A stretch of DNA of 60,298 nt, filler included, from Hausera hauseri (Eukaryota): the NCBI GenBank assembly GCA_046269625.1. It is 10 parts of 10 records of this genome, joined end to end, with 100 filler letters (N's around TTAATTAATTAA, not from the genome) between each part and the next. Parts side by side here need not be neighbours in the genome. Positions count along the whole stretch, not along the records: positions 37,264 to 41,800 come from JBJURY010536898.1; 9 more parts are not named here. One strand, given 5' to 3'. How positions within the stretch are numbered: the stretch's first letter is position 1; every line of letters begins with the position of its first letter. The notes under the pieces were generated by a model. The model saw only the letters and a list, made by a program, of their open reading frames with translations. It searched no databases and was not told where the DNA came from. This document shows positions 1-56,472 of this stretch, piece after piece. Position numbers and translations under genes: made by a program.

Positions 1-1491
1 GTTCCAGTTAGCTTTTTAGAAATGATAGTGACACCCCTATTAGGTAAGCTAACCCAATCCGTTTCGCTACGTCTAAACACTGGTTTACCCAAACTTGCCT
101 TACAGTCTTTTAGGATTGTGGGTTGTGTTGCGTTGTCTAGCAACACCCTAGTGAGGAGCATGGCTAACCGTGGAGTATTCTGATAAATCACAGGAAGCTA
201 TTGTATACATCGTTTTTCTTCGATATTAATTTGTACATTTCTTTTCTCGCACTCATATGTCAGTAGAACTTCGCAAGTAACTCGACCAAAGATTCCTTCT
301 CTCATGGGAATAATCTGTGAGGTTAACTCAGGGTTCGCGTAAATAAAAGCTAATTTTGTCCTGATAATCTCCGTATCCAATTTTCAATCATTATTTATTA
401 TTTTATGGTATAGTTCGGCTATTCCGACTTGTCCTTTATACTAAAAATAATCTTCCCTGTTTTTCAGATAATCCTGGATTCGAATATCCTGCGTTTCTAA
501 GTTATACATTTTCGCGTTTATCTCCGTTTCTGCGACGAAAAACGCTTCGTATTTAGTGGTGAACATTACTACTTCACAACGTAAAATCATTTCTTTTTTA
601 ATGAATTTCAATCCATGTTGATCAGAGACTAGTATCGTAGGTGTGTGATGTTCTAATGAGTCTTTACGTGCTCTGAAACTGGCGTCAAATTTGTCTACGT
701 ATTGTTTCCCGGTAGTTTCATTAAATTTCAGTTCCTTCATCTTAATAAAATTACAGCCCTTTCCGGAGGGCGGTTCCCTTATTACGACAGAACTTCAAAG
801 GGGACATGTTCAGTCTTGTGTGTGGCATTTTTGATTCTCGGTTTATAGCTTTGTCACATTATGGAACATAACTTTCGTAAAAGTCTACTACTACTACAAT
901 TGCTTCCAATCCTTTTCCGGTGTCGTATTCTGCTCCACTACATTGCCTATTATGCATATCTAGCCTTCCCACTACTATCTTATATGCTGTAATTATCTTC
1001 CCAGGCTGCATCTCTAGTTCCATACTATCCCATTTCAGTCTTCCGGTTTCTCTGGCCTGTTTGCAGTGTTGTCTTTCCAAATTCATTGGGATCGGAGGGG
1101 TTGTTGGTTTAATTACCGAGGAGTGTCCGTGCATTAGTCCACAATGAAAGATACTACCAGATCGTCTTAGCATACATTCCATGCCATCCAAAGATATCAA
1201 CTCTTGTTGTTGGTATAGGAAATAGCTCTTCTCCTTTGTTTCCAATTTATGGGGTCTAGCATCCTCGCATGCGTCTAAGTCCATTAGTGAATATTTCAGT
1301 CCGAGTTTAAATCTATCGCAATCGTAAACGTTAACAGCGTCCATCTGTTTTATCAACATGATTATGGTAAGTAAACTTATTAACCAATTAGATTCATTCT
1401 TTCGGTTGTTGTTATCCGTTGTCGTCAAGTTTCGTATGATGTATCCTAGTCCATTATTACTGTTCCTTTTGTCTTCTTCCTTGTCAAACAA
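1..1491 (-). pseudogene. env: Chuvirus-like / gB-type (class III) envelope glycoprotein, N-terminal and central ectodomain
   Basis: A hydrophobic signal-like segment WLISLLTIIMLIKQMDA is followed by VYDC..YSLMDLDAC, FHCG..GHSS, C..A..TG.L and C.G..Y. Downstream 'RTKLAFIYANP...GIFGRVTCEVLLTYEC...C..LPV.Y' is recognisably homologous to 28325-29500. Confidence 0.8.
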
Positions 1492-13200: not shown

Positions 13201-15390
13201 AAAGACCGAACGAACGAGCGAAAGAACGAGCGAACGAACGAAAGAACAAACGAACGAAAGAGCGAAAGGACGGACGGGCGGGTGGATGGACGAACGAAAG
13301 AACGAACGAATGAACTAATGAACGATAGACCGAAAGAACGAAAGAAGGAACAAAGGAACAAAGGAACGGACGAACGAAAGAACGAACGAACGAAAGAACA
13401 AACGAACGAAAGAGCGAAAGGACGGACGGACGGAAGGAGGGACGAAAGAAATATGGAACGAACGAACTAATGAAAGAAAGGAAGAAAGAACGAAAGAACG
13501 AACGAAGGAACGGACGAAAGAAAGAACGAACGAACGAAAGAAGGAACGAACGAAGGAACGACCGAGCGAACGAGAGCAGGAAAGAACAAAAGAACGAACG
13601 AACGAACGAACGAAAGAATGAACGATAGAACGAACGAAAGAACGAATGAACGAATGAACAGTCAAACTAACGAAAGAACGAACAAAGGAAAGAAAGATCG
13701 AACGAACGAAAGAACAAACGAACGAAAGAGCGAAAGGACGGACGGGCGGGTGGATGGACAAACGAAAGAACGAACGAATGAACTAATGAACGAAAGACCG
13801 AAAGAAAGAAAGAAAAAAAGAACGAACAAACGAACGAAAGAACGAACAAAAGAACGAAAGAACAAACGAACGAAAGAAAGAATGATCGAACGAATGAGTG
13901 ATCGAACGAACGAAAGAACAAACGAAAAAGCGAACGAAAGAGAGAACGAACGAACGAACGAAAGAACGAAAGAACGAAAGAAAGTAGGAATGGACGGACG
14001 AACGAACGGACGGACGAAAGAACGAAAGAAAGAAGGAAAGAACAAATGGAGAAAAGAACGAACGAACGAAAGAACGATCGAGCGATCGAAAGAAAAAACG
14101 AAGAAAGGCGCGAACGGACAAAAGAACAAACGAAAGAACAAAAAGCGAACGAACGAATGAACGAACGAAAGAAAGAAAGAACGATCGAAAGAAATAACAA
14201 ATAAACGAACGAACCAACGAACGATAGAACGAAGGAACGAATGAACGAACAAACGATATATCGAACGAAAAAAGGAACGATCGAAAGAAAGAAAGAAAAA
14301 AGGAAAAAGAGAAGGAACGGACGAACGAACGAACGAACGAACGAATAAATGAACGAACGAGTGAACGAACGAACGAACAAAAGAGAGATCGAGCGATCGA
14401 AAGAAAAAAACGAAGAAACACGCGAACGAACGAAAAAACGAACAAAAGAAAGTATGGTTGGACGGACGAACGGACGGACGGACAAAAGAACGAAGGAAAG
14501 AAGGAAAGAACGATCAAAATGACAAAAGAACGAACAAAGGATCGATCGAACGAAAGAACGAACAAACGAAAGAACGAACAAAAGAACGAACGAACAAAAG
14601 AACGAAAGAAAGAATGATCGAACAAATGAGTGATCGAACGAACGAAAGAACGAACGAACTAACGGAAGACCAAAAGAAAGAAAGAAAAAAAAACGAACGA
14701 ACGAATGAACAATCGAACCAACGAACAAACGAACGAAAGAAAGAACGAAGGAACGAAAGAACAAAAGAAGGAACGAACGAAGGAACGAAAGAATGTACGG
14801 ACGGACCGAAGAACGAACGAAAGAACGGAGGAACGATCGAACAAACGAACGAACGGCCGAACGAACGAACGAACGACCGAACGAACGGACGATAGAACGA
14901 ACGAATGAACGAACGAACGAAGGAATGAGCGAACGAGCGAACGAACGAAGGAACGAACGAACGAACGAATGAACGAACGGAAGAACGAACGAAAGATCGA
15001 ACGAACCAGCGACCGAAAAGTGGAACGGACAAACGAACGAAAGAAAGAACGGGCGGACGTAGGAATGGACGGACGGACGAATGAACGAACGATAAAACAA
15101 AGTAACGAACGAGCAAACGAATGAACGAAGGAACAAACAAAAGAACGAACGAGCAAATGACAGAACGAAAGGAAGAACGAACGAACGAAAGAAAGAACGA
15201 ACAAAAGAACGAAAGACCGAATGAATGAACGAAAGAACGAACGAAAGAATGAATGAAAAAAGACCGAGCGAACGAGCGAACGAACCAAAGAACGAACGAA
15301 CGATAGAACGAATGAATGAACGAACGAACGATAGAACGAAAAAAAGAAAGTACGAACGAAGCATCGTGAATTTTATTTTGTACGATGGCG
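7273..15390 (+). mobile_element. Interspersed non-coding element with an internal GAAC microsatellite (possibly Helitron/Helentron-derived, DINE-1/HINE-like), here massively expanded
   Basis: 7273-7740 aligns colinearly with 34360-34830 (GTTTTCCCCACCT; ATCGGTAGAGCT(T/C)GACGA; GGCGCTAGAAG; AACATTGGGAAAAAT(T/C)GATGGGAAAATTT; AGCATTTCATATT; GGATCC..GTGAA). After the satellite both copies resume with GCATCGT. The superfamily assignment is tentative. Confidence 0.55.
7730..15362 (+). repeat. About 7.6-kb degenerate (GAAC)n/(GAAA)n satellite
   Basis: Continuous GAAC/GAAA/GAAT/GGAC tetramers, with a nearly T-free plus strand. It explains all the SFVR/ERTN-type pseudo-ORFs in the ORF track. Confidence 0.98.
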
Positions 15391-15579
15391 TCGAACGCAC
15401 AAATTACCATGAGCTCATAATTGAGCACTACTACACACAAGAAGAATAATTGCGATCAAAAGTCACAATAATGAAAATATAATATTATTTCTCATAATTT
15501 GTTCGCTCTTCATTCTAATGTTCAATTTCGAAATATAGGATATTTGAAGTTGAGACTGTATTGGCTTGTTGTTGTTTGG

Positions 15580-15817: not shown

Positions 15818-16151
15818 AGTAGTTAGAAGTGAGGAGTTGGCCCCCCAACCCCCCCAGGGAAGGAAGGAAGCCAATGGGAGGACGACACGTCATTGTGGGA
15901 AGGAAGGAAGCCGATGGGAGTAGACGACCAATAAGAAGCAAAGCTGGGGCCAAGTGGGTTTCACTATTACCACCCCAGAACAAAGGCAACTGGGTCTCAC
16001 TATTCCCACCCCTTATTTATGAAAAAAGATGAGAAGAAATAAATATTTATTAATAACGTAAGTACAATCAAATAGAATAATGTCCATATGCGACACTATG
16101 GTTTTTATCAACCCAGTGTCGTTTATCGTCAAAGGGATCCAGTGCTTTCTT
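15818..16151 (+). mobile_element. Polinton/Maverick terminal inverted repeat (element continues past the contig end)
   Basis: Starts AGTAGTTAGAAGTGAGG (AGTAGT is a canonical Polinton terminus). Contains CCAAT/CACGTCAT subrepeats and TGGGTTTCACTATT repeats. Homologous to 41461-41800 and, inverted, to 37264-37382. Confidence 0.8.
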
Positions 16152-22160: not shown

Positions 22161-22419
22161 TTCTCGACAGCAGAATGTTCAATACCTGAAATTTCTAACA
22201 TCCCGATATATAAATTATCGGTTTCATTACATGAACATCATTCCTATACTCCTTGACAATATGTCGAAATATTCGAGATGTCAGATGAAAATCTGTGCAC
22301 TAACCGACCATCATTAAAATAACAAAATAAAATATTATTAATAAAAGTATAAATGAAATATTAATTAAGTATAACATAACTAACATCGTTTGTGTGAGGT
22401 ACATAAGTGTGATTAGAGA

Positions 22420-23142
22420 AGGCAATCTTGAATAGAGTAACATACTGAATTTGATATGAGTCAAAATCAAGTTCAAAACGCATTACACCGCTCAGAACGA
22501 ATTCTTCATGATGGAACAGCCTTATTACCGGTTTTTGTTCGTGTCAATTAATTAAATAATTAGCAAGATGGCTGTCGTCTTCGTGACATATGATTAGGTG
22601 ACTGGGTTCTGGCATCAATGCCATCTTTTGTATTGGTCTTTTCTTACGAATTGTTCCACCACAAGCATGAATAAGATCTATACACACTTGTCTATGTTTT
22701 GCCCGAGGTGATAAGAAAAATTCAATGCCATCAAATAACGGCGATAAATGGTGATGTATTCGATTCCGAGCTCTGCGTAACGATATATCCAAAGAAAACC
22801 CAAACTGCTTTTTTCACCCTCTTTGTCTTCAAGTTTCCAGTATTTTTCATCTAAACATCGAGTACGAAATACTAATTTCAAACACAAAAATCATACGCAC
22901 CGACAAACTCATTTTTGATTTCGCACGCCTGGAGCCACATCATCGTAACGATGTGACAACCTCGCAAAAATACCGTAGTAAAACTTGGGTGTTCTGATAA
23001 TATTTCTCACAATCAAATGAGTACATTGATTCATGTCTTCGGTAACAGTACCACGAAGACTAATAACAATATCTGTAAGTTTATCTCTCTGTTCTGGAAG
23101 CAATCTAGTAAATGCCACGACAACATGCGTTTGATTTTCCAT
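22420..23142 (-). pseudogene. PAXIP1: PAXIP1/PTIP C-terminal tandem BRCT fragment, disrupted, with a 50-nt GT-AG intron at 22900-22851
   Basis: Reads VVAFT...GTVTEDMNQCTHLIVRNIIRTPKF, CHIVTMMWLQAC..KNEFV^DEKYWKLEDKEGE, SPLFDGIEFFLSP, IICHEDDSHL, HEEFVLSGVMRFELDFDSY, fitting the PAXIP1 C-terminal BRCT pair. Several frameshifts. Confidence 0.75.
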
Positions 23143-24685
23143 AGGTTGAAATAACTGCTCAATTTTTTCTTTTTTCTGGTGTTTCTCTTTTAATGATATT
23201 TTCGTTACTATTTATTTCACTGTTTTCAAATTTGATTTTTACTGGTAACTTATTGACTTTAACGACATGGTTCATAACGAATCGATGTTCCTCTTCAGAA
23301 AGATTTGGAATAATCCATCTAATTTAAATACAGTAATATAAAACTATTACAGATCGAAGTTAAACAATGTGCAAGCAAAATTCCGTTTCTGTAGAAATAA
23401 TAACAATCAACAGAAAAGCATAATTACATACTTTAAGGACTTCGGCATTGAATAATTTGTCTACATATATTTTAAGCTTAAAGCAATGTAATATACACTG
23501 GAAGAAATATAAAACTTAAAAAGTAAAAAGCATATTTTGAAAGAATATAGCTATCATGCGATTATTACGTCAAATTTTCAATCTTTCCAAAAATTCCGGC
23601 TAAAAATGTTTGATATAATATGATTTAAGTTGAATTTTAAATCAGTTGAATCCATTATTCGATATAGTTTCTTCAGTGTTCTTGAACGATGTTGCGTGTG
23701 ACAAAATTGGTGAAACTGCATTTCAGATGGTTCACGAATGTTAAAATTGCAATACATATTAAGAGATTATGTAGTGTCAATTCGCACTTCTTCAATATTC
23801 CCCCAAACATGCAGAAGGATTTTTAATAAATAAAATTTTTGCCATTTTCGAGCATTAATATTTAACTAATTATGTTTCCTTGACGTTTTGTCAACCTAAT
23901 TAATATCCGTCTAATATTTAGCATAAAACATGTCATCGTTCATGTGTAAAGTTAATATCTGTATAGAAGGAAGAAATATTAGTGATGCAACTGATAATTA
24001 GACGAATACATTGTACTTTGACATAACATGAATGACAAATTGGAAATACGAGTTTAGTAAAATATTGGTTAAAGAAATGCAAAATGACGTAGCATTTAAA
24101 ATCCCATATTGCATAAAAATATTTTTCATATTATTAATTACCATAAAATTTTGCACTTGTATAACTCCGATTAGAAGTAAGGTGCTATTCCTTGTTGGAA
24201 GCCTGTTGCAATTTTTAAATAATATTCTAAACATTATATAACATACTTCGGTTCTGTTTAGCCAAAGTTCTAAAGAAAGTTTTTACAAATATATTTTCCA
24301 TAAAGTAGATCGATCAGATTATAATAAGAAAACGATGTCTCGTTCTCCAAAACGAAATATCTATTCCAACATTATCACAGATTATTCAAATCTACTATCT
24401 CGTCTTTAAGTGCTATATTGACACTGTTTAAGTCAATCAAATTTTGAGCCAACAATTGGAGAAGTACTTTGACCAACAGTTCACCGAACAAAAACAAAAT
24501 AAAAGAACCAATAACGTACAATAATAGACATCAATTGGCTGTTTGAATAAGAATGAATAATAAATGCAATTGTAAACCGACGTACATTTCGTTAGAGCAG
24601 AAAATTTTAAACCCAACATCCTTAGTGTGCATTCACAATTTGATGATTAACAGTCAACGATCTAATAGAGCCAAACAGGTTGTTC

Positions 24686-25704
24686 TTAAAAAATCAAATG
24701 GCTCTCAGAACTCATGCCATATTTTAATTTGTTTTCTTCAAATAAATCATTGAGGCAATTAAAATATTTTTCATGAAGATGGTTCACCTCTTCCTCCGTG
24801 GGATTTTCACGTTTTTCAACAGAAATCGGAGTACCAACAACTGTTACCAATGGTTTCTTTATGGGGCATAAATCCAAACGTATAGTTGAATACTCCTCGA
24901 CCATAAAACAATGGCGGAGAATTGTGAAAACGCCGTTTAAACCATTCTTGAAACGAACGAAGATATGATCCTTGAGGATTCTTTACTTAAGTAAACAATT
25001 CATTTTCATGAAATCCAAAACATGGAACTAAATCGACACAATATTTTAGAGCCCATTTTGACGAAACCTTTACGGTCTTTCAGTTTAAGTTTCAAAGCCT
25101 CCGGACGACATTCCAATTCTTCTTCAGCACCCCCAATAACGATTATGACCGCATTTCCCTTACCGCATTTCGTAAACAAATATCCGATACTTTCCTTACT
25201 CGAATCACTAATCCCGAATGATAACAAATACGTTAGAATAAATGGATGATAATAATTATTAACCAAAGTTAATAAAATAGATTTAATCCCGGAAAACAAT
25301 TTCGTAATTCCTGTAGCCTCCATGGAAAAGTTACAAAATGCTCCACAAACCAAAATCCCATGGGGATGATAACCAAATAAATAATTTTTACTCGGATCCA
25401 AATCAGGAGTTTTCACCAAACTGATCGGAAAATAATCTCGATAATACGTCCATATTTTCCATCGTCGAACGCACTCAAATCGTCTTCCACCGGTTTTCTG
25501 AGTGTCCCGTTCGTAGACAATGACCCAGAGTACATACAGCAATGTCAACGGCCAGAAACTGGTAAACAAACTGTAAATTACAATCAATCAACAGATAATG
25601 GGACCAAATATAAAGAACCAAAACCTTTGGGCTACGACAAATGTTTGCAGTCGTCTCTCAAGTTGAATAAACAGCGGACAGAATTCAATTCCTAATATTT
25701 TCAT
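24686..25704 (-). pseudogene. DGAT2/MOGAT-family acyltransferase, full length, intronless, disrupted
   Basis: MKILGIEFCPL..LERRLQT, YYRDYFPISLVKT..LDP.KNYLFGYHPHGIL (HPHG motif), GGAEE, RKGFVK, TVVGTPI.V, LHEKYF..L..LFEENK. One in-frame stop (~25590) and frameshifts near 25050-24900. Confidence 0.9.
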
Positions 25705-28324: not shown

Positions 28325-29862
28325 TGATGATAACTATGAGTGAGTGCGAATATGATAATGGCGAATGTGATACTGGAGAATCGAAAATGACATGGGAAAC
28401 CTCGGCAAGTAAATGTCAGTTAACGCTGCTAAAAGAAGGAAAGTTTAACAAAACAGTAGGAAAACGGCGGAAAAAGAAACAGCTACATATAAAGAAGGAA
28501 CAAAGGAAGTCAAGATGGCAGAAGTGGCTACAATTGTATATTCGGAAAACCCAGAAGAAATGACGCGATTCAAAATCACTGGAGTAGCAAATAAGTGTAG
28601 CGAAGAAATATCAAAAACCAACTATAAGTGTATATTCTTACCGAGAAAAGAAATACCCCGTGCGAAAACCAAAATAGACAAGAAAGATATAAAGCTAACA
28701 CAATATTTCGATAACAAGATCGATTTTCTAATCAATTACGTAAGGAAAGAAATTAGAGGTTTATATCGAGAAATAATAATGAATGAGTGCAAATTGAACT
28801 ATAAAATAATGCGTAATAAAATGGCATTGGTAATAACGAATCCCGACATGGTAGCGCCAGTAATGCCCTTTGGCGATGGAATTATTGGAAGAGTGATGGA
28901 CTGATAACAATAGAATGCAAAAAGGTGGAAGGATCAATGAGGCCAGTAGACGAATGTACAATGGAATTACCCGTAGTTTATCACTCAGAAGCGCGATATG
29001 TTATGCCTGTGACTAGGATATTAATAGATATTAATGTAAAGTCTACTGTACTATACAATTGCACTTTTAATATGCCGCCAATGTTTAAGATCGACAACGA
29101 CAAATGGATTAGAATGCCAAAAAGAGAACTAGTGTCTAAACCGGAGATGTTAAGTTTGATTAATTTGCAAAGGAATCAGAAATTTGAACCGTTGACAGGA
29201 ATATCACAAGGAGGAATCTATACCCAACAAAATCTAGAAGACTATTGACGAATGTTGTTATTCCCACAACAAAGACAACTAGTTATAACAGAACTAACCA
29301 GGAGAGTAATGTGGGATGTCGAAGGATCACCACAATGGGAAAACCTAATGGGGAAGGATTATCTAAAGAAAGTAACAAGAAATATTATGGAGATGTGGGG
29401 AAAGTTCCTATATTTTGGCCAAGCAGCTTCCGGTTTTCTAGATATATATTTTTTATTAGCACCTTACGGACAATATTTACGGCACTAGCATATGGAATAC
29501 ATGCAGCAGTAGGATGCTCATGGAAAATTCTAATAGCCGTAACACCGGCAGTAGTCAGTTGTTTCCTAGCAAACCACGACACACTATGGAAAAGGAAGAT
29601 TCTACAAAGGAAAGATGGAAAAGATTCCCCGTATAGCATACCTGATGATAACGATATTGAATGTGATCAAGTAAAAGTAAAAGCTAAACATAGACGAATG
29701 ACCGGTATTAAACAAGTAGTGCTTAAGACACGAAAGCCGAAGTATAGACAGAAGTTAATAACTGATTTACCCCATCTAGATCCCGTAGATGAATACCATG
29801 GAGAGTTATATAACGAGCAACAATTAGTGAATCCTTCAGCTCCCCGATACGTAGTGCATACA
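28325..29862 (+). pseudogene. env: Chuvirus-like / gB-type envelope glycoprotein, C-terminal half, membrane anchor and tail
   Basis: CEYDNGECDTGESKMTW...C, YFDNKIDFL, C.L..KIMRNKMALVITNP, GIIGRV, C.KV....RPVDECTMELPVVY, P.TRIL, C....PPMFKI...W, GGIYT, LLFPQQR, WGKFLYFGQAASGFL plus a hydrophobic stretch, and a tail with PSAP. Confidence 0.85.
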
Positions 29863-37263: not shown

Positions 37264-37382
37264 CGATGACGTGTCCTCTTCCCATTCGCCAGTTTCACTT
37301 CCCCTCGATGACGTGTTCTCCTCCTATTGGCTTCCTTCCTTCCCTGGGGGGGTTTGGTGCCAAGTCCTCACTTCTAACTACT
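37264..37382 (-). mobile_element. Polinton/Maverick TIR ending ...CACTTCTAACTACT
   Basis: Reverse complement of 41461-41580 and of the TIR at 15818. Followed by TTCGTG (putative TSD, 37383-37388). Confidence 0.85.
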
Positions 37383-39570
37383 TTCGTGATTGTCATTTTA
37401 AAATCTGCCCAATGAGCCGGTATTCTGCACAGAAGCAATTCTGGAGTACAACGAAACATGGTTCGCACAACAATGGCGACGCCGTACTGATCAACAAACT
37501 GCATAGTGCTGCAGAACTTGAAAAAACGCAAATTAAATGGAATATAAAAAGCTTCCAGGAACTGTATTACAGTATGGTTCGATTATACAGCTTCTCCATA
37601 TCTAGAGTAACAAAATACTAACTGTCAATAAAAAGCTCCCGGCTTTGTTAGAAAAAACGCAATGCGGGTGTATTTAGACGTTAATGGCAACGAAGGATCT
37701 TGGTTATATGTTCAACCGTTTTATAAACACTGTTCAGTTGGCGATAATATTGTTGTTGGGGACAAAGCGATATTGAATCCCGTCAACGCTGGGCAACCAT
37801 TGCATGTTAGTCATTACGATTTATTAGATCATATCGAATGCAACGAAGTAAATGCTGTGAACTGTAGTACATCATCGTAAATCACACTTTTCATGGATTT
37901 CAAGGAAAATATTGACGATGTTTTAAAAGGGTGAAATCTTGTGAGACTGTTTCATACCGAACAAGAAAAGTTTTTGACCTGTGATGAATACAAAAAGGAA
38001 AGATACGTTTTCCTTCATACAATAGCTCGCGCAACTGTAACTCCTGCAACGGGTATTCCAATTGATAGGGATGCTGAAAAACCAATCATGCACAACGTAT
38101 GCTGTGCTTTGTTGGAGGAAGACAAAGAAGCTTTTGCAGTTGCACCGATATCTGCTCAAAAAGTTCCAGATTTAGATTTTTCTAACGATGCCAGTAAAGT
38201 ACTTTCTGTTGTAAAGCAAAAAATTATACAGCTCGCCGCCAATGATAAAATTGTCTATAACCTTCTTTCCTTAATTGTGCAGTTCCTTTGTTCACTGGAG
38301 GACACAACTGGGGACCCATTAGAATTGGAAGTAAAATGCATTACTAGATATCGTCGGAAATTATCAAAAGAAAAAAATATTTTGAAGCAGATTTTTAAAA
38401 TACTCGAAAGTCCACTGTTAACCGATTTCCCCATTAAAATGGAAGACTTATCTGATCAGAAAAATATCGCGTTTAAAAATATTTGCCGGCTTTGTTACAG
38501 AATTCTAAAACTATTCCAGCAAGACTCGGAAGAATCAGGAATACATTGCAAAGCAACTTCCGATGATGCAAAAAAGATTGGCTGCGGCATTTTGCCTGAA
38601 GATACTGTGACTGCTTTGTTGCATAATAATCGGAAACTGCTAGAAAAACACATTACAGTATCTGAAATAAATACTTTCATAAATTTAATACGGAAGGGAA
38701 CAGATAGCAGATTTTTGGATTACTTATCAGATTTATGTATATCAACAATATTGCCATCCCTGTGACACAGGAATTGATCTGCAAATGTATATTTAATGAA
38801 GAAAATCAGGATATTCTGATAAAGACATTTATATACAAGAAAATTGAAATTGAATATGAAGTTAAACCCGATTATGGATTTGAAGATGATTACGTATTAA
38901 ATATGGCTGAATATGATAAAATCAAGGAAGCGCAGACAATTTTATAAACCGAGGAAGAAGACACAATCATTTATTGGGAATGTGGAAAACATTCTAGAAT
39001 CTTTTAGAATTAGTTCAAGCAGCCAATAATGGCTCCAAAGATGATGAATCAATTCTAAGCTATTACAGATGTCAGTTTGTACTTTTCTCGAATCTTTGTT
39101 TGGACCGTCAGTATTTGGCCATAAATGACTTATCAAGAGAACAAAGTACAGATCTTATGTTAAGTGCATCTCCACTGATATGTTGCCACATAGTCTTCGT
39201 GCCTCATTTTGCCGTTTGTTGATACATTTACATGTGGATAGAGATCCACAAAATGTTACGCAATCTATTAAATTCGCAAGACTATAGGCTGACCTCCCGG
39301 AATCAATGGATATTGACAGTAACGAAACTACAGACTCGGAAGACGAAGTCAAGGAGGAAGTGAAACAAAATTTTACACCAGTTATCAGCTTTGTAGAAGA
39401 ATGACTAAATAATGTCGTCAATAACAATTTAATGCTCTCAATTCAGAACAAAATAAACTTACATTCGAGATTGAAACTGGTTTGACATCTTATATATTTT
39501 GGTTTCTACTCATTCCATGATTTACTTCAGTTAGTGAAAACTTTACTAAGAATTCTGGATTGTGTCATCC
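37383..39570 (+). pseudogene. ITPR: Inositol 1,4,5-trisphosphate receptor N-terminal fragment, intronless and disrupted
   Basis: [139 protein letters not shown]. No introns seen over ~2.2 kb. Internal deletion, stops and frameshifts. Confidence 0.93.
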
Positions 39571-39880
39571 CTTCAAAGACACCAACTTCGGACCTTTCGA
39601 TAACCTTTGCATATCCAATTTTGTATGGAAACAAATCGCTTCCAAAATCAGAAATGAAAAATTATTTAAACTGTGCCGATCAAATAATGCGTATTTCAAA
39701 CGAATATTTCGCTTCTACACACAAAATAAGCTTATTGATTACCAATTTCGGCGTGTTTTGCAACCTTACAGTCTCCGCTTTATCCGCTCCAGATATTTAT
39801 GTGCGACTGCCCATTAAGACTGACGAACCCCGATTCATTAAACGCAGTGAAACAAGTAAGAATTCGGCCACCCTGCATTT

Positions 39881-40563
39881 TGGTGCCCGCCCCGCCGGGG
39901 CGGAGGTCCCGACCGCCAACCCTGCGCCGGTTGGTCGGACGGTATCTTCGGCGTCGGCCCCACATCACGCCCCCAGGCGCACCACTTTCACTTCCATTTT
40001 TTTAACAATATACATATCACCACCTTCAATACAACACATCCACACATTCCCGCCCTTCAAACATGCGTTTCTTCCTTACTTAATTCTTCCGACTTTTACC
40101 TTACCCATAACAACGCTCTCATACATTTCAACGGAACTCTACCTTCTTTCTCAAATCACACTTGCTTCAACATACATCTCCGTATCAGCGGTGGCATGAA
40201 TTCTTCGGCAACCATTGACACCACGGATACAACCACTACAAAAAAGGCAATACCCATTCTCTACTACCCCAAACCAAACCATCTACCTACTTCAATCGAT
40301 GCAAATTCTTCTCACAAAAATCCTACCAATACTTCTCCACATTGCACTGAATACTTCATAGATAATGAAAAGTCCAGCAAAACTTTGCTCCACTTCCATC
40401 AACTCTGGTTATAGTCCAACGGTATCACAGACTCGTTATCCGAAGCCCATAACCTACTTTATCTTCTACCAAACTCTATAAAGGCCTCAATCCATAACCT
40501 ACTTGACATCTTTCAACACTCTGACCCTTATACCCAATTGTTCGATGCTGTGTTAAAACAGAC
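39881..40563 (+). mobile_element. CsRn1-like gypsy 5' fragment: PBS-like motif, GC-rich leader, truncated gag (ATG 40196)
   Basis: TGGTGCCC at 39881 is followed by hairpins (CCGCCCC-GCC-GGGGCGG). The gag N-terminus MNSSATIDTTD...DPYTQLFDAVLK is homologous to that starting at 50774. Confidence 0.7.
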
Positions 40564-40564
40564 A

Positions 40565-41065
40565 TAAGAAGACGATGCTTATCTTCGACGTCCAATCAGC
40601 ATGCGACCTGACTTTGTTGATGTATATCAAAACAGAGGAGACATTTTATAAAACTTGGCAAATCGGATGAAGCAAGAAATAAGTATATAACCGCACTTCA
40701 ATATAGGCAAAACAGTGCAGATTTGCACTACAATTTGGGTGTTGTAAATATGGAAATGAAAAGGAATGATGAAGCTATTAATTGCTTTTATGCATCGCTC
40801 AAAATTGATCCCAATCATAAACACGCACGGTTAAGTTTGGCATCGTTTTATTCTGACAATCCAGAGAAGCGAGAAGAAGCCAAAACAATATATTATGACC
40901 TAATAAAACTAAATTTCGAAGTCGAGAAATGTCATTTTGCTCTTGCTATGATGGAAACGGATGATAAAATTTCCAACTTGCTGAGAAACATTATCTTCAG
41001 TCGCTAAAGTATGATCCAACGTCTCGTGGATCATTATTCAATCTTGCCTTATTGCATAACAATGA
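40565..41065 (+). pseudogene. TPR fragment of a TMTC-family (TMTC3-like) protein, intronless and disrupted
   Basis: ISMRPDFVDVYQNRGDIL, ADLHYNLGVV..E....EA...F..SLKIDPNHKHA, LAMMETDDK, RGSLFNLALL follow the order of the TMTC3 TPR region. Confidence 0.7.
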
Positions 41066-41397
41066 ATTTATGACGTTTGTTTTAGTTGAATATTGTATTT
41101 ACTATCAGTTGTACAGAGTTGAATAAAAAATTGATTTTCTGCCATTTTTTGAACATTTATTTGACGTTTTTCAGAAATCAGGCAATTTCAACCGTTTGGA
41201 TTTTTTTTATTGCGGATATTAATCATACAACTATAAATTGGTGTCAGATTTTACCTCTAAATATTCGAAATTGGAGCTATTTGTTCAAGATGCAATCAAA
41301 GCAGAAAGCAGGATTTAAATTCAATTCCTTTAAAAAGAATCCAAGTACTAAAATAACTCCTAATGAACCGATCATTTTCCCAAACAAATCCAATACG

Positions 41398-41460
41398 AAC
41401 GACCGATGTATTGTTCAACCGTCAGATGGTGATCTAAGGAATCCGCCAAAAAGTTTTATG
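41398..41460 (+). pseudogene. ITPR: ITPR fragment that belongs immediately upstream of 37383
   Basis: NDRCIVQPSDGDLRNPPK corresponds to ITPR 'DDRCVVQP..GDLNNPPKK', whose continuation 'FRDC.FK' is at 37383. Confidence 0.85.
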
Positions 41461-41800
41461 AGTACTTAGAAGTGAGGACTTGGCACCAACCCTCCCCCAG
41501 GGAAGGAAGGAAGCCAATAGGAGGAGAACACGTCATTGAGGGGAAGTGAAACTGGCGAATGGGAAGAGGACACGTCATCGGGGGGGAAGGAAGTAAGCCA
41601 ATAGGAGTAGAGGACCAATCAGAGAGCATTGATGCCAATTGGGTTTCACTATTCCCACCCCGGAACAAAGCCAATTGGGTTTCACTATTCCCACTCCGGA
41701 ACAAAGTGGTTTCACTATTTCCACCCTTATTTATGAAAAGCGATGAGAAGAAATAAATATTTATTAAAATACAATCAAATAGAATAATGTCCATATGCGA
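41461..41800 (+). mobile_element. Polinton/Maverick TIR (element continues past the contig end)
   Basis: Starts AGTACTTAGAAGTGAGG, preceded by TTTATG (41455-41460). Homologous to 15818-16092. Confidence 0.85.
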
Positions 41801-41900: not shown

Positions 41901-44177
41901 ACTCCGGTAACACGACCAAGTACATCAACTATGACACGTGAAATGATAACTAGTCCCATTATGGAACTTAAGAAAAGTATCAAAGAATTGGACATAATTA
42001 TCCAACCAACAACTTATTCATTGATTATCACAGTATCTGACTTAAAGAACACGAACATAAAATTTGAATGCCACCTTAACCACAAAATTATAAGCGAAGG
42101 AGTTTTAACTCCGGAAGAGCCCACATCAGCTTGTATGCCTTTGGAAGCTGATACGAATTACAAAGTAATCATAACGGAACTAGACGAAGATGGACAGACG
42201 TTACAGACTGTTAGGAAACTAGAGAAAACGTTAAGATTACCAATGGTTCTTACGACAAAAGTTATAAAAACCACTACTATACGAATCTCAACGGAAAATT
42301 CCAATAGATATCTCTGGATGATTATCACCCTAGGAGTTCTCTTAGTTTTAATAATTATACTACTACCAATTACAATTTATTGTTCTAAAATAAGACGTAA
42401 AACGCGTAAAACTAAGATAATGATGCAAAAATTAAAATTATTAAGAGAGGCATCCCAAGACGACGATTTAGTAGACGCGCCCCCTCAAGCTGAAATGCTA
42501 CCAGATTTTAAACGGCTATCTCAACCGTTAACAAATGTTGCACTATATATATGCACACATGTAAGAAATAAGGCTGCAAAAATATTAGCAACCTACCAAA
42601 GTAATAACTATAAACATTATAGGCTGCAAAGCTCTATGCGACCTAACATGTATTTATTTTTAAGAAGTTTCCCATGGCTATTATTGATTTGTTCTATTTT
42701 AGTTCAAGAAGGTGCCGAAACAGTAGAGAGGGCCAAGTCCTTCTACTACAATATATCCTCCAATCTAGAATCCACACAACACAAGGATTACCTTTATTTC
42801 GGAAAGGCCTCACTGATTCCTAATAATCTTAAAGGCCATTTGGTTACTCAACGATCAGGACTAATTATTAAATTGCCTAACACATCCACCTTACTATCCG
42901 ACTTAATCGACATATCCACAAAAACAACGTCCGTATATTTGTCAGTCATAAAAGCCAGTCTCCAACTAAAAAGTAGAAGCCACAGAAATAATATGACCGA
43001 CTTAATGGATATCGTTCCTTTTACTACCATCCGACTCGATCAGCGGTTCTATAAGAATGCCACAATCACGTTACGGACCTTTGGAGGACCTAGTCCTATT
43101 TTATACGTCGAAGTTACCAGACGTGAGACAATACCTCGCCCAGAATATGAAGTACCTATATACAATCTTCCTTTTCCTAACAAATCTCAACTCGAAGAAG
43201 GATGTTCCTTCTCCAGGATATCTCCAGTTTCAAGAAACCAAGTGATAATCTTATCCACCAACGTCGCCTACCTCATGAGAGACGCCCGTTCAGAAGCTAC
43301 TCTCACAGAAATTACTCTGATGGACCTAGAAGGCAAAGTTATTTTCGATCAATTTATCACTCCGAGAGACCGCGTGGATAATTATAACACTCAGATAAGT
43401 GGGATAAAAGAAGCAGATGTAATCGGCCAGGCCGACCAATATCAAATCTGGCCTACTATCCGGCGACAATTAGTGGGGAAGATGCTAGTAGGCATGACTC
43501 TATTCAAAATTAATTCTCAGTTAGCCCTCTTTAACATGGATCAAATAATGGGCCTACGTGATCTGTTCTACAACGAAAATATAAATCCAAAAAGAACATT
43601 GACCCAAAAACAGCTTTTCCTAAAGTACAACAACATCAAGTATCCGACTCGAACAAAAGACAAGGCCCAAATTATCTTGGATATCTATAACACCTTAAAG
43701 GAATACCAAAATGAAAAATCAAATTCGGATTCTATATCAATAGTACCAAAAATTTCGAACGAATTTTCAATCTTATCTGACAAAGACATTATCTTGCCTA
43801 CTAACGAATCCATGGATGTAGATCATATGGAAATAGAATCCCCATCAGAAGTACCTTTAGATTCTGCTATAATTTCAAATTCAAATAGTCAATTAAAACC
43901 ATCAACGAGCAATATCCAATCAACACCAATCGTTAGTTATAATGAGATCGCAACCACAGATTCAAAAAGAAAAAGAAAAAGAATTCCCAGAGACCAAACG
44001 ATTACATTAAAGCTCAAATTTAAAAAGAAAGGGCTGTGGCGACACTATGAATCCTCCAGCTATCGATTAGACAATGGCACCTTGGAAATCTATCCAGCAA
44101 TGCTGCGGACAGCATTGACTGAGGAGGGGGTTGTTGATATTACAGATTCTCAAGTTACAGACGTTGTAGACGATTAA
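41901..44177 (+). CDS. Retroelement 3' ORF (5'-truncated): beta-rich/FN3-like segment, TM helix, second hydrophobic segment, degenerate DEDDh (ISG20/REXO4-like) exonuclease
   Basis: Open from the contig edge for >750 codons without stops. TM at ~42309-42383 and a second hydrophobic segment at ~42648-42706. ~43240-43690 reads 'LTEITLMDLEGKVIFDQFITPRDRVDNYNTQISGI...IRRQLVGKMLVG...LRDL', the REXO4/ISG20 pattern. The ORF end overlaps the PPT. Confidence 0.75.
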   Translation, partial: TPVTRPSTSTMTREMITSPIMELKKSIKELDIIIQPTTYSLIITVSDLKNTNIKFECHLNHKIISEGVLTPEEPTSACMPLEADTNYKVIITELDEDGQTLQTVRKLEKTLRLPMVLTTKVIKTTTIRISTENSNRYLWMIITLGVLLVLIIILLPITIYCSKIRRKTRKTKIMMQKLKLLREASQDDDLVDAPPQAEMLPDFKRLSQPLTNVALYICTHVRNKAAKILATYQSNNYKHYRLQSSMRPNMYLFLRSFPWLLLICSILVQEGAETVERAKSFYYNISSNLESTQHKDYLYFGKASLIPNNLKGHLVTQRSGLIIKLPNTSTLLSDLIDISTKTTSVYLSVIKASLQLKSRSHRNNMTDLMDIVPFTTIRLDQRFYKNATITLRTFGGPSPILYVEVTRRETIPRPEYEVPIYNLPFPNKSQLEEGCSFSRISPVSRNQVIILSTNVAYLMRDARSEATLTEITLMDLEGKVIFDQFITPRDRVDNYNTQISGIKEADVIGQADQYQIWPTIRRQLVGKMLVGMTLFKINSQLALFNMDQIMGLRDLFYNENINPKRTLTQKQLFLKYNNIKYPTRTKDKAQIILDIYNTLKEYQNEKSNSDSISIVPKISNEFSILSDKDIILPTNESMDVDHMEIESPSEVPLDSAIISNSNSQLKPSTSNIQSTPIVSYNEIATTDSKRKRKRIPRDQTITLKLKFKKKGLWRHYESSSYRLDNGTLEIYPAMLRTALTEEGVVDITDSQVTDVVDD
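44121..44130 (+). promoter_or_regulatory. Polypurine tract
   Basis: GAGGAGGGGG followed after 1 nt by TGTTGA. Confidence 0.7.
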
Positions 44178-48999: not shown

Positions 49000-50330
49000 A
49001 AATTTTTGATTTTTGCTCAAATAGACCTTTTTCTTCGATTGCGACCAAATATTTTTCATGTTGCTGAAACATACGACACAGAACTTCTCGATTTCGTTGG
49101 AATGGCCATTGAAAAATGTCATGGAGTATGTGAAAGTACGTGGCAATTTGACTATAATGGAATTAATCCATCCCTTGACTATATGGAAAAGAAACTAGAC
49201 CCAATCGTAATGCAAACTAAAAAACCATCTCATGGTTTTCTCGATCACTACTCGCAGTTACCTGAAATAAGAGACATTCATCGACCAAATTTCAACTCAG
49301 TCAGTGCTCCAAGATCTGCTAGAACTGTAGGCAGTTCATAATTTGATTCAGGGGATTCTTTTAACATTACACCGCGCTCACAACTACCTCGAAGTATCAG
49401 TGCTGATACATTAACATCTATGAAGTTTGAATCGGATTTCCAGTTGGATCGTTGTCTTCACAAACTCCGGTACCCGGGCATTAAAAATATTCAGGAATAG
49501 AATTCTCGATATACAATCAGCTATAATATGCTTGAATTCTCCGGAAATGACGACAATGCCTCAACCAAAACGAGTGTTACATTGAACGACAAACTTGCGA
49601 AAATGGTTCAGTCCAACCCTGTGCCCGATTTATTATCATTATCCAATTCTGGAATCATTATGGATGACTTAGATAAAATAGCAAATTTCGAAAAACTCGA
49701 ATACTTTACATCGTCGCTTGAATCCATCCAGGTAAGCTCACGAATGCTTCGGTCTTGTTCATCTTCACTCGAAGAAGTTCTGACAATTATTTCTGACAGT
49801 CACCAAGTAAAAAAGGAAGATGAGTTACATCCATTGCGGCCTCCATCGCTGACAACATCAATCATGTAATTGCAGAGTATTATAACAATCGATGACAATG
49901 TTTCACCAAAAAATTCGTATATGGCTTTGAAAATGGTTGCCAATTATTACAGAAATCCAAAACTAACTAGACATGCTGTTGTTGGTCATCTCCCTGAAAC
50001 GTTCTTTGGGAAATTTGGACGTATGATACAAAATCAAATTCACATTAATATGATTTTCTCAAATATTCTGCTCACTCTTATGTCATATCCTCACCCGCTG
50101 TTGCACAATTATTTGGTTGGCTTTGCCAGGACTTGGCAGACGGCGTTGGTTCACCTTACTTTGCTTTTAAATCATACAGTTGAAATTCGCAGGATGCAAA
50201 ATAAAAACCAACATATCAAAAAGTGATGACAAATATTTTCAGATACTCGATATCGATGCTACACAAACTCTAGAGACGACTTCATTTATCGGCAGAGAAA
50301 ATTATTTCATGGAGCAATGAACCTGAAACT
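49000..50330 (+). pseudogene. FHIP/FAM160-family fragment, intronless and disrupted
   Basis: 'IEKCHGVCESTWQFDYNG' and 'GHLPETFFGKFGRMIQNQIHINMIFSNILLTLMSYPHPLLHNYL' resemble the FAM160A 'C..AC..W...YDG' and 'GPFL..LF.KLE.M..N...VN..LT......A.YPQPLLRSFL' blocks. Confidence 0.65.
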
Positions 50331-52399: not shown

Positions 52400-53500
52400 T
52401 TTTGCAAACAAATCCAAATTACCTGATATACATTTCGTTAATATTCGACTTTATGACAATGATCCTATCAGTCAACGGCCTCATCATGAATATATTTTCC
52501 AGCATAACATGATGACGGGTAATTTCAATGAAATCTCAACGTCTGTCACTTTAGTCACTGATTTAATTACCGAAATTAAGTCAAATCTACGGAATGTGAA
52601 AATCGTATTTTTCCCATCACAGATAGTTAAAAGAAAATCCGACGATTCATGGGCTTGATCCGTGAAATACTAAGTTCACAGATAACTGAGCTTCCATCAA
52701 ACCATTTAAAACAAAATAACTCTAGTCGATTGTCAGTTTATTCAGATATTTATCAGAAGTCCATCAAAACTTCATTTTCAGACGTAAAAATTGATGGAAA
52801 GGAAAATATTGTTAGTAAAAGATGTAAAACTCAGAACGATGACAATGAAATATACAGAGCACCTCTGTACAACAACAAGGAGGAAAACAGTATGGCTAGT
52901 GACAATTTTTTAAATCAATCCGATATATCAGTCAACCGAGTTCATTCCGATTTATCAGTCAATCGAATTCAATCCGATTATACTCCTGAAACAAATATGG
53001 AAATGGGATTTTCTAATAAAACGATTAAACCATATTTCCTCGAAACAAACTTTATTAATAACCTTTTGCGACCTCCGATTCACGACAATTCCAGATAGCG
53101 TCGATTACACTATTTAAATAAAGAGTGAATTGAATAAATTGGAGATTAAGAAAAATGAGGCTGAATTACTTGAAGATATCACGGATTACATTTGAGATTT
53201 ATCGAAGTCCATGGGTTTTGTTTCCTAGAATATTCAGAAAACGTGTGCTCCCTGAAATAACCGATGAAATGAAGGAAATGGTCAGATGTTGGGTTTATAC
53301 GGAGAGACAAGATACTGTTGCGATGGAGGCATTTAATTTATCGGTTATAGTTACGGATCTGATTTCATTGCAACCTAAACAGTGGCTGACGGATAATGTT
53401 ATAAATTTCTATTTGGAACTTATATATGAACAAATTAACAGTTCTACCGATAAACTAAATTTGCAGATTTTAATAACTTTCTTTTATACAAAATTGGTGC
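52400..53500 (+). pseudogene. SENP/Ulp1 SUMO protease fragment (N-terminal region and start of the C48 domain)
   Basis: LPEITDEMKEMV...QDTVAMEAFNLSVIVTDLISLQPKQWLTDNVINFYLELI...TFFYTKL. Catalytic residues are absent because of truncation. Assignment of the upstream part is less certain. Confidence 0.75.
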
Positions 53501-54552
53501 CTCATATTATTCAGGATACTCTGTATTGTTCTGGCGAATGTCAAAACGAGTTTGGGCTATGTTGAATTATGGTGTGGTGTGTTGTCAAATGCTACATATG
53601 TACAGGGATTAGACCTTTGTTTTGATGTATTAAATTNNNNNNNNNNNNNNNNNNNNNNNNNNNNNNNNNNNNNNNNNNNNTTAATTAATTAANNNNNNNN
53701 NNNNNNNNNNNNNNNNNNNNNNNNNNNNNNNNNNNNTATGCTTCGTGTTCCACCACTGGATTAACATGTCCGACAGACTTGTTTCGGAGTCCCAATTGGG
53801 ACGAGTAAACAGATTTTGCACAAGACATGTAAGATTGGGTACAAATGACGGATGCTTGTCTTATATATTTTCATGGTTTGCAAACAAGTTTTGACATGTT
53901 TGTCTGATGCAATGTTTGATCCTCCCAAAGTTGGAAATAATTTCTTCTGTTTCCAGGACGCACTATGAGGATGTGTTGAATGGTCATGTTCCCCTTTTCT
54001 GCTTTTCTGAAATTTAAAAAAAAATTGTTTCGTTTCTTTTTCCATTTTTACCTACTGATGTAGTAGCACAATTCGGGAAATTAAAGATAGGCAGGGTTGG
54101 TAGAAACAGCTACACCTGCAAACATACAAACCGGGAGATGGTGAATGCAATCATAAATGGAAAGTCAGTAAGCACATTTCCGTGGTGAACAAAAAACAGC
54201 AAAAAGCACCGAGATATACGTTTGCGTCACATGACAACTGGAGTCGGTCAAGGAAAAAAGTGTGGTGACACAAGACAATGGAGCTAGTCAGTCAGACAGT
54301 GGTGCGACACAAGACAAAGACAGTTGGCCATACAGATTCGCCATAGAGTTGGCCAGACCGAGGTTGATCCAGAAGTCGTGGAGTTGTTGATGCAATTGAT
54401 CACTCAGTTTGCCAGAAATTTTCCTTCTGCCCATATCGCCATCGAGTTGTCATCCCTTTATAATGCCATCCACGTTATTAATAACTTCCTTTTAATAACA
54501 TCATCGAATTTAAATAACTTGAATTTTAGATTAATTTAATTCAATTTATTTC

Positions 54553-54750: not shown

Positions 54751-56472
54751 ATTGGGTGGGCAATATATATGTGGGCACTCATGCAACCCATGCCAACAGA
54801 TTTTCCCATAAGTAGAACTAGTTACGATAATTTCAGCACCAAGAAGTTTAGTTACTACACCCAACAGAGTATGGAATGGTTATCTTGGGTTATCTTGGGT
54901 TTCGCATATTAATAACGTTAGTTTAAGAACACAGTACAACGGTCGCGAGAAACGTTTAGGTCTCAATGGTTATAGCGTAGATGGGTGGGATAAAGAATCG
55001 CGAACGGCTTACCAATTTCATGGGTGTAAGTTTCACCGCCATCCCGATTGCCGACTCACCCGTGGTAAGACCGTTAACTCCGTCAACAACAAACCATTGA
55101 TGGAGTTGTACGAGAAAACTCAAAATTCGAGAGCAGCTAGAGAAGGAAGCTAATGAAGTCGTGGAGATGTGGGAATGAAACTGGCAGGATCTGAAAGAAT
55201 CGGAGCCTACGATCATGGGCTTTCTCAGTACAACGCCTTTCTATGGGCGTTCTGCCTTCCAACATCCACCAACCGAAAAGCAGATTCTCACGGCGATTGA
55301 GAAAGGTACATTTTTTGGATTGGTAGAGTGTGGCATAAAGGTCCCCGAAAAGTTGGAAGCTCATTTCTTTGAAATGACGCCAATTTTCAAAAACGTTGAC
55401 GTCTCTAGGGACGATATCTGGGATTTTATGCGCGAGCACCTATCAAAAACAAGCTCTTGACGCGTCCACGTCGTACACTGGTAGGAAGTTACAAGGATGA
55501 AAAGATCCTTCTTGCCACACCGTTGTTAAAATGGTATCTGTTACAAGGCCTGGAAGTTACGAAAATCTACCAGATTATCGAATACCGCCCAATGGCTTGC
55601 TTCCAAACGTTTGGTGAAAGCGTCACGAATGCTCGGCGCAAGGGGGATCTGGACGACATGTACTCCATCACGATGAAATTGTTGGGGAATGCCGCTTATG
55701 GAAAGATCCTAGCAAACAAAGCCAAACATACAAAGGTGGCTTATTGTTCTGGTGAAGCTTCTTCGCTCTTTGTAAATAATCCTCGGTTTAAAAAGATGAC
55801 CGAGATTAACGAGGTCAAACTGTTTAAGGATAAAGTTGTTTGGGATATCCCTCTCCAAATAGGTTTTTCGTGTACCAGTACGCGAAATTGCGAATGTTAG
55901 CTTTTTATTATGATTTTATAGACGTTTATATAGATAGGTCAATTGTATGAGATGGATACCGATAGTCTTTATTTGGCCTTAAGTAAAGAGACTTAGCTGA
56001 CGCAGTCAAACCACAGGAGAGAAAGAATTTTTTTAGTACGTCCGACTCGTGGTTCCCAGCAAAGGCTTGTTCCGACCATACGTCGGAATTTATTCGTAAG
56101 GAGGATAAGGGGGTAGTAGATTGTCAGGCCTGTAGGGATAGACCGTTAAAAGATAAAAGAACTCCAGGGCTTTTTACGTTAGAGTACTCGGGTCGAGGGA
56201 TGATATCACACTGTCCCAAGACTTACTTCTGTTATGGCGACCACGACAAAATCAGCACAAAAGGATTAACAAAGGGACACAAAACATTAGATAAGGAAAC
56301 AATTTTGTCAGTTTTAGAAAAAGAAAAACCACAGGGAGGGACAAATATAGGTTTTAAAATACACAAAACATCGATTTACACTTACACCCAACATAGAAAG
56401 TCACTTTCATATTTATACATTAAAAGGCAGGTTCAGTCAGACAATGTTACTACACTTCCACTAAAAATTTAG
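54751..56472 (+). pseudogene. Polinton/Maverick protein-primed DNA polymerase B (type with an inserted Vsr-like FHGC..H segment), disrupted
   Basis: YMWALMQPMPT, VDGWD..SRTAYQFHGCKFH, EMTPIFKN, ILLATPLLKWYL..GLEVT, MKLLGNAAYGK, YEMDTDS, KRTPGLF.LE, KTYFCYG, STKGL, YTYTQ.RKSLSYLY.KR.V..D...T.PL.I*. Confidence 0.92.

What the first reader, a model, noticed from the sequence alone, without database searches (positions are those of the whole stretch)
37264..41800. Circularly permuted Polinton insertion site: one ITPR coding stretch split across opposite ends of the contig
Seen: the contig starts with a Polinton end (...CTAACTACT) followed by TTCGTG and ITPR 'FRDCHFK'. It ends with ITPR 'DRCIVQPSDGDLRNPPK', then TTTATG and the other Polinton end (AGTACTTAG...). 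Joining 41454 to 37383 restores the continuous ITPR peptide apart from a 1-nt indel, and TTCGTG/TTTATG match at 4 of 6 positions. Established: Polintons have AGTAGT-type termini and 6-bp TSDs. Inference: both flanks of one insertion lie inside the contig in swapped order. Either the Polinton inserted into a ~4.1-kb circular DNA, or the unit (4.1 kb + Polinton) is tandemly amplified so the two ends belong to neighbouring copies. Either way a chimeric retrocopy is topologically tied to a virus-like element.
Basis: partly seen in the sequence, partly recalled or inferred. Interest (0 to 1): 0.85.

Follow-up and report, generated by a model that had tools for sequence, protein, structure and literature searches.

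The report
Polinton ends flanking a permuted pseudogene
Two facing ends of an abundant, probably Polinton-type DNA element enclose a 4.1-kb dead patchwork gene whose two halves lie in swapped order, most likely because an old insertion was later duplicated head-to-tail, though a direct reshuffling by the element's own integrase is not excluded.

Summary
Contig 37264-41800 begins and ends with arms of one inverted repeat (116 of 120 columns alike). Their termini (AGTAGT / AGTACT) face a 4,078-bp unit. The ITPR reading that stops at the right arm resumes at the left arm, at the same residue in 52 of 56 homologs, with a 6-bp overlap (TTCGTG/TTTATG). Both flanks of one target site therefore lie in swapped order.

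The unit is a decayed chimera: ITPR pseudogene, an unidentified piece, a high-copy retroelement-like fragment, a TMTC3-like piece and another unidentified piece. In run X1 the repeat is about 3-4 orders of magnitude deeper than the unique pieces, and a second, internally deleted copy keeps the permuted order. Run X2, with another organism label and study, holds two pieces at 99%. This points to heritable chromosomal DNA rather than a free circle.

Best reading (about 0.45): a head-to-tail duplication after insertion. No Polinton gene is linked to these ends, and no long reads or genome were available.

The parts
37264..37382 (-). Left inverted-repeat arm of a Polinton-type element; terminus AGTAGT at 37382, element body runs off the contig start
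   Evidence: motif as in PMC8097293
37383..37388 (+). Target-site copy 1 (TTCGTG), in ITPR frame (F-R-D)
37383..39570 (+). Piece B: ITPR pseudogene, residues about 53-905, no intron-sized inserts, 8 in-frame stops, at least 5 frame changes, one internal deletion of roughly 100 codons near 38040-38050
   Evidence: tblastn; Pfam PF08709, PF02815, PF01365
39571..39859 (.). Piece x: unidentified, low-copy; open in one plus frame but with no family match
   Evidence: no significant hit; depth
39860..40564 (+). Piece R: truncated fragment of a high-copy retroelement-like repeat, homologous to the gag-like region in contig 9; candidate crossover or misjoin site; LTR status not established
   Evidence: tblastx 37-42% identity, E 2e-28; weak DUF7041 hit on the contig 9 homolog, E 0.002, below cutoff; X1 bin depth 982-5,904
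40568..41066 (+). Piece T: frameshifted TPR-protein fragment, TMTC3-like
   Evidence: Pfam TPR families; Atlas first hit Tmtc3-like, score 0.98; boundaries read by eye from the frames
41067..41396 (.). Piece U: unidentified, possibly genomic continuation of the TMTC3-like locus; joined directly to the start of B in a second copy (joint 37418 to 41072)
   Evidence: no family; tables 5 and 8
41397..41454 (+). Piece A: ITPR residues about 33-52 (DRCIVQPSDGDLRNPPK), the natural upstream neighbour of B
41455..41460 (+). Target-site copy 2 (TTTATG), 4 of 6 identical to copy 1
41461..41800 (+). Right inverted-repeat arm; terminus reads AGTACT; internal 28-42 bp repeats; body runs off the contig end
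   Evidence: boundary supported by another flank at 41460 in X2 (table 7) and by the contig 2 copy
15818..16151 (+). Third copy of the same repeat end on contig 2, with an unrelated flank (96 of 122 columns alike to the left arm)

Best explanation
The contig is most likely the spacer between two neighbouring copies of one Polinton-type insertion, left by a head-to-tail duplication that probably happened after the element inserted into an already dead, chimeric ITPR pseudogene. Steps: (1) a chimeric, intron-free ITPR/TMTC3-like/retroelement patchwork forms and decays (decay shown; RNA origin inferred). (2) A Polinton-type element inserts at TTCGTG with a 6-bp duplication, giving A-P-B (ends and overlap shown; identity as Polinton inferred). 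(3) A block containing the element is duplicated in tandem, A-P-B..A-P-B, with the breakpoint at one of the four internal junctions or by unequal crossover inside the high-copy piece R (inferred). (4) A short-read assembler cannot cross the abundant repeat and emits P-end/B..A/P-end as a contig (shown for the contig ends). (5) Later decay and a 3.65-kb deletion affect one copy or allele (joint seen in one X1 contig).
For: Same-residue overlap in 52 of 56 homologs, so one target site. X1 has a contig joining the start of B (37418) to U (41072), depth 10.9. U therefore lies downstream of B in a second copy, without passing through R, so the permuted order is in DNA (table 5). The 29+1 letter side equals a k=31 fork overlap, and record 1 begins at the same place, 37390 (my reading). 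Sub-pieces of the unit have near-identical extra copies: 38528-39095 with 0 differences at depth 13-16, against 6-10 for 37390-38011 and 39066-39807 (table 8). This suggests a duplication-prone locus. A high-copy repeat sits mid-unit as a ready recombination substrate. NAHR is called the prevailing model for tandem duplications in PMC3744419 (abstract passage). X2 carries 37482-37643 (1 difference in 162, across pseudogene lesions) and 41006-41266 (2 in 261), so the DNA is probably heritable.
Against: No read spans an element, so no second A-P or P-B junction was seen. The summed depth at the start of B (6.3+10.9) fits one long and one deleted allele of a single-copy locus as well as two tandem copies; single copy would favour reversed-ends transposition or circle reintegration. 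The tool warns that contig depth is not copy number. The key joint rests on one contig with a 29-letter side and 'between: not known'. The right junction has 4 changes in about 17 bp against 5 listed differences in the rest of the arm, and CpG observed/expected in the unit is 0.9-1.07, so plain ageing explains the 4-of-6 match poorly. X1 may be the window's own source and is not independent.
Confidence: 0.45

Rival explanations
1. Reversed-ends transposition: two separate elements sat about 4 kb apart, the integrase cut their facing ends from the chromosome, the segment between them closed into a circle, and the ends re-inserted into that circle. This permutes the segment and leaves one 6-bp duplication on both facing ends in a single step.
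For: It predicts exactly this layout. PMC3470690 describes circularisation of the inter-transposon segment and cites 13-kb permutations in maize (passages); PMC3744419 and PMC4270019 list permutations among the products (passages). The repeat is very abundant in X1 (34,548 at 41493 against 6-10), so close pairs should be common. Depth is compatible with one copy per haplotype.
Against: It needs a Polinton integrase that cleaves chromosomal ends. I recall this as proposed but not shown; the source papers were not held. I found no Polinton case in searches. The C. elegans eri-6/7 rearrangements are attributed to ectopic recombination (passages). Near-identical duplicates of sub-pieces show that ordinary duplication acts here.
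Confidence: 0.2
2. Partial duplication plus assembly collapse: the true order is U-A-P-B-x-R-T-U' (or two copies of R flank the block), and the assembler joined the duplicated copies into a circular path.
For: Fragmented short-read assembly. No listed X1 piece identical to the window spans R or the U/A junction, and the longest pieces over R are other family members at about 86% (table 8). T and U have depth 20-35, so several copies exist.
Against: A misjoin through R between exactly the two copies of one locus, among hundreds, is unlikely. The 37418-41072 joint places U after B without R. This reading still needs a real local duplication of U.
Confidence: 0.15
3. The element inserted into a free DNA circle (eccDNA or a one-LTR-type cDNA circle carrying host cargo), which then re-entered the chromosome by recombination with another copy of the element.
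For: It gives the same order. Circular intermediates that reverse block order are reported (PMC7450558, abstract). All three identifiable pieces are on the plus strand, as expected for LTR-mediated chimeric retrocopies (PMC5131818, abstract).
Against: It needs two rare events. The ITPR piece is much more decayed than the arms, so it was not a fresh cDNA at insertion. I saw no clear polypurine tract or second LTR before R (by eye). Three co-oriented pieces arise by chance 1 time in 4. Presence in a second study argues against a still-free circle.
Confidence: 0.12
4. Two independent insertions hit the same site in two pre-existing tandem copies of the pseudogene.
For: It would explain the 2-of-6 mismatch as older divergence between copies; the family is abundant.
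Against: Chance co-location is about 1e-3 (my estimate). Other copies have unrelated flanks (contig 2; X2 loose end at 41460), so there is no sign of a fixed target.
Confidence: 0.05

Closest known systems
Polinton/Maverick elements (PMC8097293, passages read)
   Same: 5'-(AGT)2 end motif, 6-bp target duplication, long inverted repeats
   Different: No integrase, pPolB or capsid gene is linked here; the ends face inwards onto host DNA; one terminus departs from the motif at position 5; copy number appears very high
Reversed-ends transposition of maize Ac/Ds with permutation of the inter-transposon segment (PMC3470690, PMC3744419, PMC4270019, passages; Zhang and Peterson 2004 and Huang and Dooner 2008 seen only as citations)
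   Same: Two facing element ends, one shared target duplication on both, intervening DNA circularly permuted
   Different: hAT transposase and 8-bp duplication there; progenitor alleles known there, none here; the mechanism here is not shown
Polinton-associated reshuffling of C. elegans eri-6/7 (PMC11414722, passages)
   Same: Several Polinton ends around host exons, with inversions, duplications and deletions among alleles
   Different: A functional gene, inversion rather than permutation, ascribed to ectopic recombination; no shared target duplication discussed in the passages seen
Segmental duplications through circular intermediates (PMC7450558, abstract; tilapia vasa PMC3245284, search listing only)
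   Same: Block order A-B turned to B-A
   Different: There the circle opens at a microhomology breakpoint; here the opening is a transposon target site
LTR-mediated chimeric retrocopies (PMC5131818, abstract) and Pack-TIRs (PMC8277862, passages)
   Same: Host gene fragments from several parents fused to a retroelement piece, or lying between TIR sequences
   Different: No pair of flanking LTRs was found; the TIR termini point at the host DNA, so it is flank and not cargo

Membership tests
Polinton/Maverick | Terminal motif 5'-(AGT)2 or (AG)3 | tested here: met
   Left arm and the contig 2 copy start AGTAGT; right arm AGTACT; motif from PMC8097293
Polinton/Maverick | 6-bp target-site duplication | tested here: inconclusive
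   Overlap is 6 bp if the 1-nt deletion is accepted, 5 bp otherwise; only 4 of 6 letters match
Polinton/Maverick | Long terminal inverted repeats | tested here: met
   At least 119 bp shared between the arms, cut by the contig end; family similarity runs over the 340-bp right arm. It is not shown that both arms bound one element
Polinton/Maverick | pPolB, retroviral-like integrase, ATPase, protease and capsid genes between the TIRs | not testable with these tools
   Element bodies run off the contig; no genome held. A broken pPolB-like gene is on unlinked contig 10 (2 of 30 homologs carry PF03175), possibly from another element or organism
Reversed-ends transposition product | Shared target duplication on two facing ends and a permuted inter-element segment | tested here: met
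Reversed-ends transposition product | Single copy of the segment; far ends carry two different older target sites that meet at one internal joint | not testable with these tools
   Needs reads spanning the elements; depth is ambiguous
Tandem duplication | Two copies of each element junction in head-to-tail order | tested here: inconclusive
   A second copy of the start of B exists in X1, but allele and tandem neighbour cannot be told apart
Retrocopy (processed pseudogene) | Loss of the parent gene's introns | tested here: inconclusive
   No intron-sized insert over about 750 aligned codons, but the parent gene was not available
Retrocopy (processed pseudogene) | Poly(A) tail with target duplication, or flanking LTRs | tested here: not met
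   Longest A run is 7, inside coding sequence; no long direct repeat in the contig. Permutation or deletion could have removed them
Pack-TIR / Pack-MULE | Host fragment inside the element, termini facing outwards | tested here: not met
   Termini abut the host DNA
Helitron tandem array | CTRR/TC head-to-tail junction with hairpin | tested here: not met
   The 3 CTRRTC matches all lie inside colinear ITPR sequence, none at a junction; motif recalled

The most novel reading that the evidence does not exclude
This is a fossil of reversed-ends transposition by a Polinton integrase: two neighbouring elements had their facing ends cut out of the chromosome and re-inserted into the circularised DNA between them. 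It would be direct genomic evidence that Polinton integrase excises ends from chromosomal DNA and rearranges host genomes as Ac/Ds does, and a genome with thousands of such ends would allow a census.
Probability: 0.2. Interest if true: 0.75.

Novelty: new variant of a known kind. Interest (0 to 1): 0.4.

Why it matters
Under the leading reading it matters little: a dead pseudogene in a repeat-rich, duplication-prone region. It matters if the reversed-ends reading holds. How Polintons leave the chromosome is, to my recall, modelled but not demonstrated, and facing ends that share one target duplication are a signature that can be counted in any long-read assembly. The same signature, with the copy number of the enclosed segment, separates integrase-driven rearrangement from ordinary duplication.

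Tried and rejected
No whole genome is held, so no search for the parent ITPR, an empty site or full elements was possible.

A 23-base repeat-end pattern gave 0 matches in viral contigs and 2 in metagenome contigs. Both matched only the 23-24 bases, in GC-rich unrelated DNA, and are chance. A viral-contig search with the contig 10 pPolB-like piece gave 1 locus of 10 candidates, a 17-residue match and uninformative.

No RNA holder was listed; this is no evidence on expression. No 41454-to-37383 empty-site joint appears among the rows shown, but the tables were cut (1 joint, 26 between-letter rows, 451 loose ends and 8,936 pieces not shown), so absence is not established. Low depth at 37495-37941 was not used to infer absence of the parent gene, because the tool filters human-like contigs.

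Pieces x and U: no family in Pfam; for x also nothing in PHROGs (within a longer frame), PDB or Atlas (best 0.87). TPR piece: the homolog and representative searches returned only generic TPR proteins; the TMTC3 name rests and recall.

A one-LTR-circle reading of R was examined and LTR limits could not be fixed. CpG decay as the cause of the TSD mismatch is not supported. Helitron junction not found. The bacterial promoter scan was irrelevant. The search of earlier findings returned nothing in 4 of 4 answered look-ups. Four papers were not held. No supplements were read; none is known to bear on the claims.
Full report
SETTING. The window is 10 short contigs joined by artificial spacers. The finding is contig 7 (37264-41800, 4,537 bp). 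The assembly appears to be from an invertebrate animal: the ITPR piece is 40-52% identical to bilaterian ITPRs. No genome is held.

THE OBSERVATION. The two contig ends are arms of one inverted repeat: 116 of 120 columns match, and their termini face each other across 4,078 bp. The left terminus reads AGTAGT, the right AGTACT. A third copy on contig 2 starts AGTAGT with an unrelated flank. In run X2 another flank leaves the sequence at 41460, which fixes the boundary. ITPR residues about 53-905 follow the left arm and residues about 33-53 precede the right arm. Of 120 homologs, 56 hit both end pieces, and in 52 of them both pieces meet at the same Phe. The flanks are TTCGTG and TTTATG, with one A missing just upstream on the right. 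The 4-of-6 match alone has P=0.048. The co-location within 5-6 bp is what excludes chance (about 1e-3, my estimate). PMC8097293 gives (AGT)2 ends and 6-bp duplications for Mavericks (passages).

ANATOMY. Left to right the unit is B, x, R, T, U, A. B is the ITPR piece, with 8 stops, at least 5 frame changes, a deletion of about 100 codons and no intron-sized inserts. x is unidentified. R is a truncated high-copy repeat homologous to a gag-like region on contig 9. T is a TMTC3-like TPR fragment. U is unidentified. A is the short ITPR piece. B, R and T are all on the plus strand. ITPR decay far exceeds the 3% difference between the arms, so the element probably landed in a dead gene. Similar decayed copies occur on contigs 4 and 9, so chimeric pseudogenes are ordinary here. 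'Retrocopy' remains inferred without the parent gene.

OUTSIDE EVIDENCE. Two runs hold the stretch: X1 (0.83 of words, possibly the source) and X2 (0.09, another organism label and study). Both were laid on 37346-41800 at 80% likeness (contigs only, tables cut). (i) Depth at 41493 is 34,548 against 6-10 for unique ITPR pieces. The tool says this is not copy number, but it points to a very abundant family, so similarity of the two arms does not prove they come from one element. (ii) One X1 contig, depth 10.9, joins 37418 to 41072. Its 29+1-letter side is what a k=31 fork gives, and record 1 begins at the same position. In an unpermuted layout U lies upstream of B, and a deletion could not make this joint. 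The B-to-U order is therefore probably real and independent of R. Caveats: one contig, short side, 'between: not known'. (iii) 38528-39095 is matched with 0 differences at depth 13-16, and T and U reach 20-35, so sub-pieces have further near-identical copies. (iv) X2 holds 37482-37643 (1 difference in 162) and 41006-41266 (2 in 261), which suggests inherited DNA. X2 also has 40568-40676 with a different upstream sequence. (v) No empty-site joint is among the rows shown; this proves nothing.

MECHANISM. Four routes give P-end/B..A/P-end. Tandem duplication after insertion (0.45) needs one common event, has a recombination substrate in R, and fits the local evidence of duplication and deletion. 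Reversed-ends transposition (0.2) also needs one event and predicts the layout exactly. It is documented for maize Ac/Ds (PMC3470690, PMC3744419, PMC4270019; passages) and fits a one-long, one-deleted allele reading of depth. It requires chromosomal end cutting by a Polinton integrase, for which I found no report in searches; the library lacks most subscription papers, and the two main Polinton mechanism papers were not held. A partial duplication collapsed by the assembler (0.15) and insertion into a free circle followed by reintegration (0.12; precedent for order-reversing circles in PMC7450558, abstract) are less likely. Independent hits at one site get 0.05.

AGAINST MY READING. No second element junction was seen. 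Depth is ambiguous. The right junction carries 4 changes in about 17 bp with no CpG depletion in the unit to excuse them; no model explains this cleanly.

COMPARISON. The ends look like Polinton ends (motif met, long TIR met, duplication imperfect), but membership is unproven because no gene is linked. A broken pPolB-like gene on contig 10 is circumstantial. It is not a Pack-TIR, since the termini face the host DNA, and no Helitron junction was found. Polinton-linked reshuffling of a host locus is known in C. elegans and ascribed to recombination (PMC11414722, passages).

VERDICT. A real and neatly diagnosable permutation around one target site, most likely an ordinary post-insertion duplication in a dead pseudogene. 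Interest 0.4; new variant of a known kind. There is a 0.2 chance that it records reversed-ends transposition by a Polinton integrase (interest 0.75), which long reads would settle.

Noticed in passing
window 41901-44177 (+), contig 8: Open frame of at least 758 aa (P0314) with a hydrophobic, transmembrane-like stretch near residues 137-160 and a weak exonuclease match later (RNase_T, E 0.092, below cutoff); no Pfam hit for the whole protein at 0.01. Odd architecture, possibly virus-derived.
   Followed up: partly
window 54812-56469 (+), contig 10: Broken protein-primed PolB-like gene; best homologs about 60% identical, 2 of 30 carry PF03175. Not linked to the repeat ends.
   Followed up: partly
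window 862-1491 (-) and 28449-29485 (+): Two retroelement contigs carry Monjiviricetes-type fusion glycoprotein fragments (PF24664), an env-like gene in Gypsy-like elements.
   Followed up: no
window 22350-23300 (-), 24689-25700 (-), 49501-50226 (+), 53134-53562 (+): Other frameshifted host-gene copies without evident introns (BRCT, DAGAT, DUF5917, Ulp1 protease). Decayed gene copies, some fused to the same retroelement family as piece R, look common in this assembly.
   Followed up: partly
window 7800-15400, contig 2: About 7.5 kb of purine-rich simple repeat (AT skew about 0.85) with what looks like a 3.55-kb internal period in the ORF list, ending about 400 bp before the third repeat end.
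   Followed up: no
window 37728-37748: In X1, record 1 has 78 letters that do not fit the window and overlaps record 2 by only 21 letters (table 8); possibly a small insertion or duplication allele.
   Followed up: no
window 41449-41465: Cluster of 4 changes in about 17 bp at the right junction, denser than in the rest of the arm; could mark error-prone repair when the rearrangement formed.
   Followed up: partly
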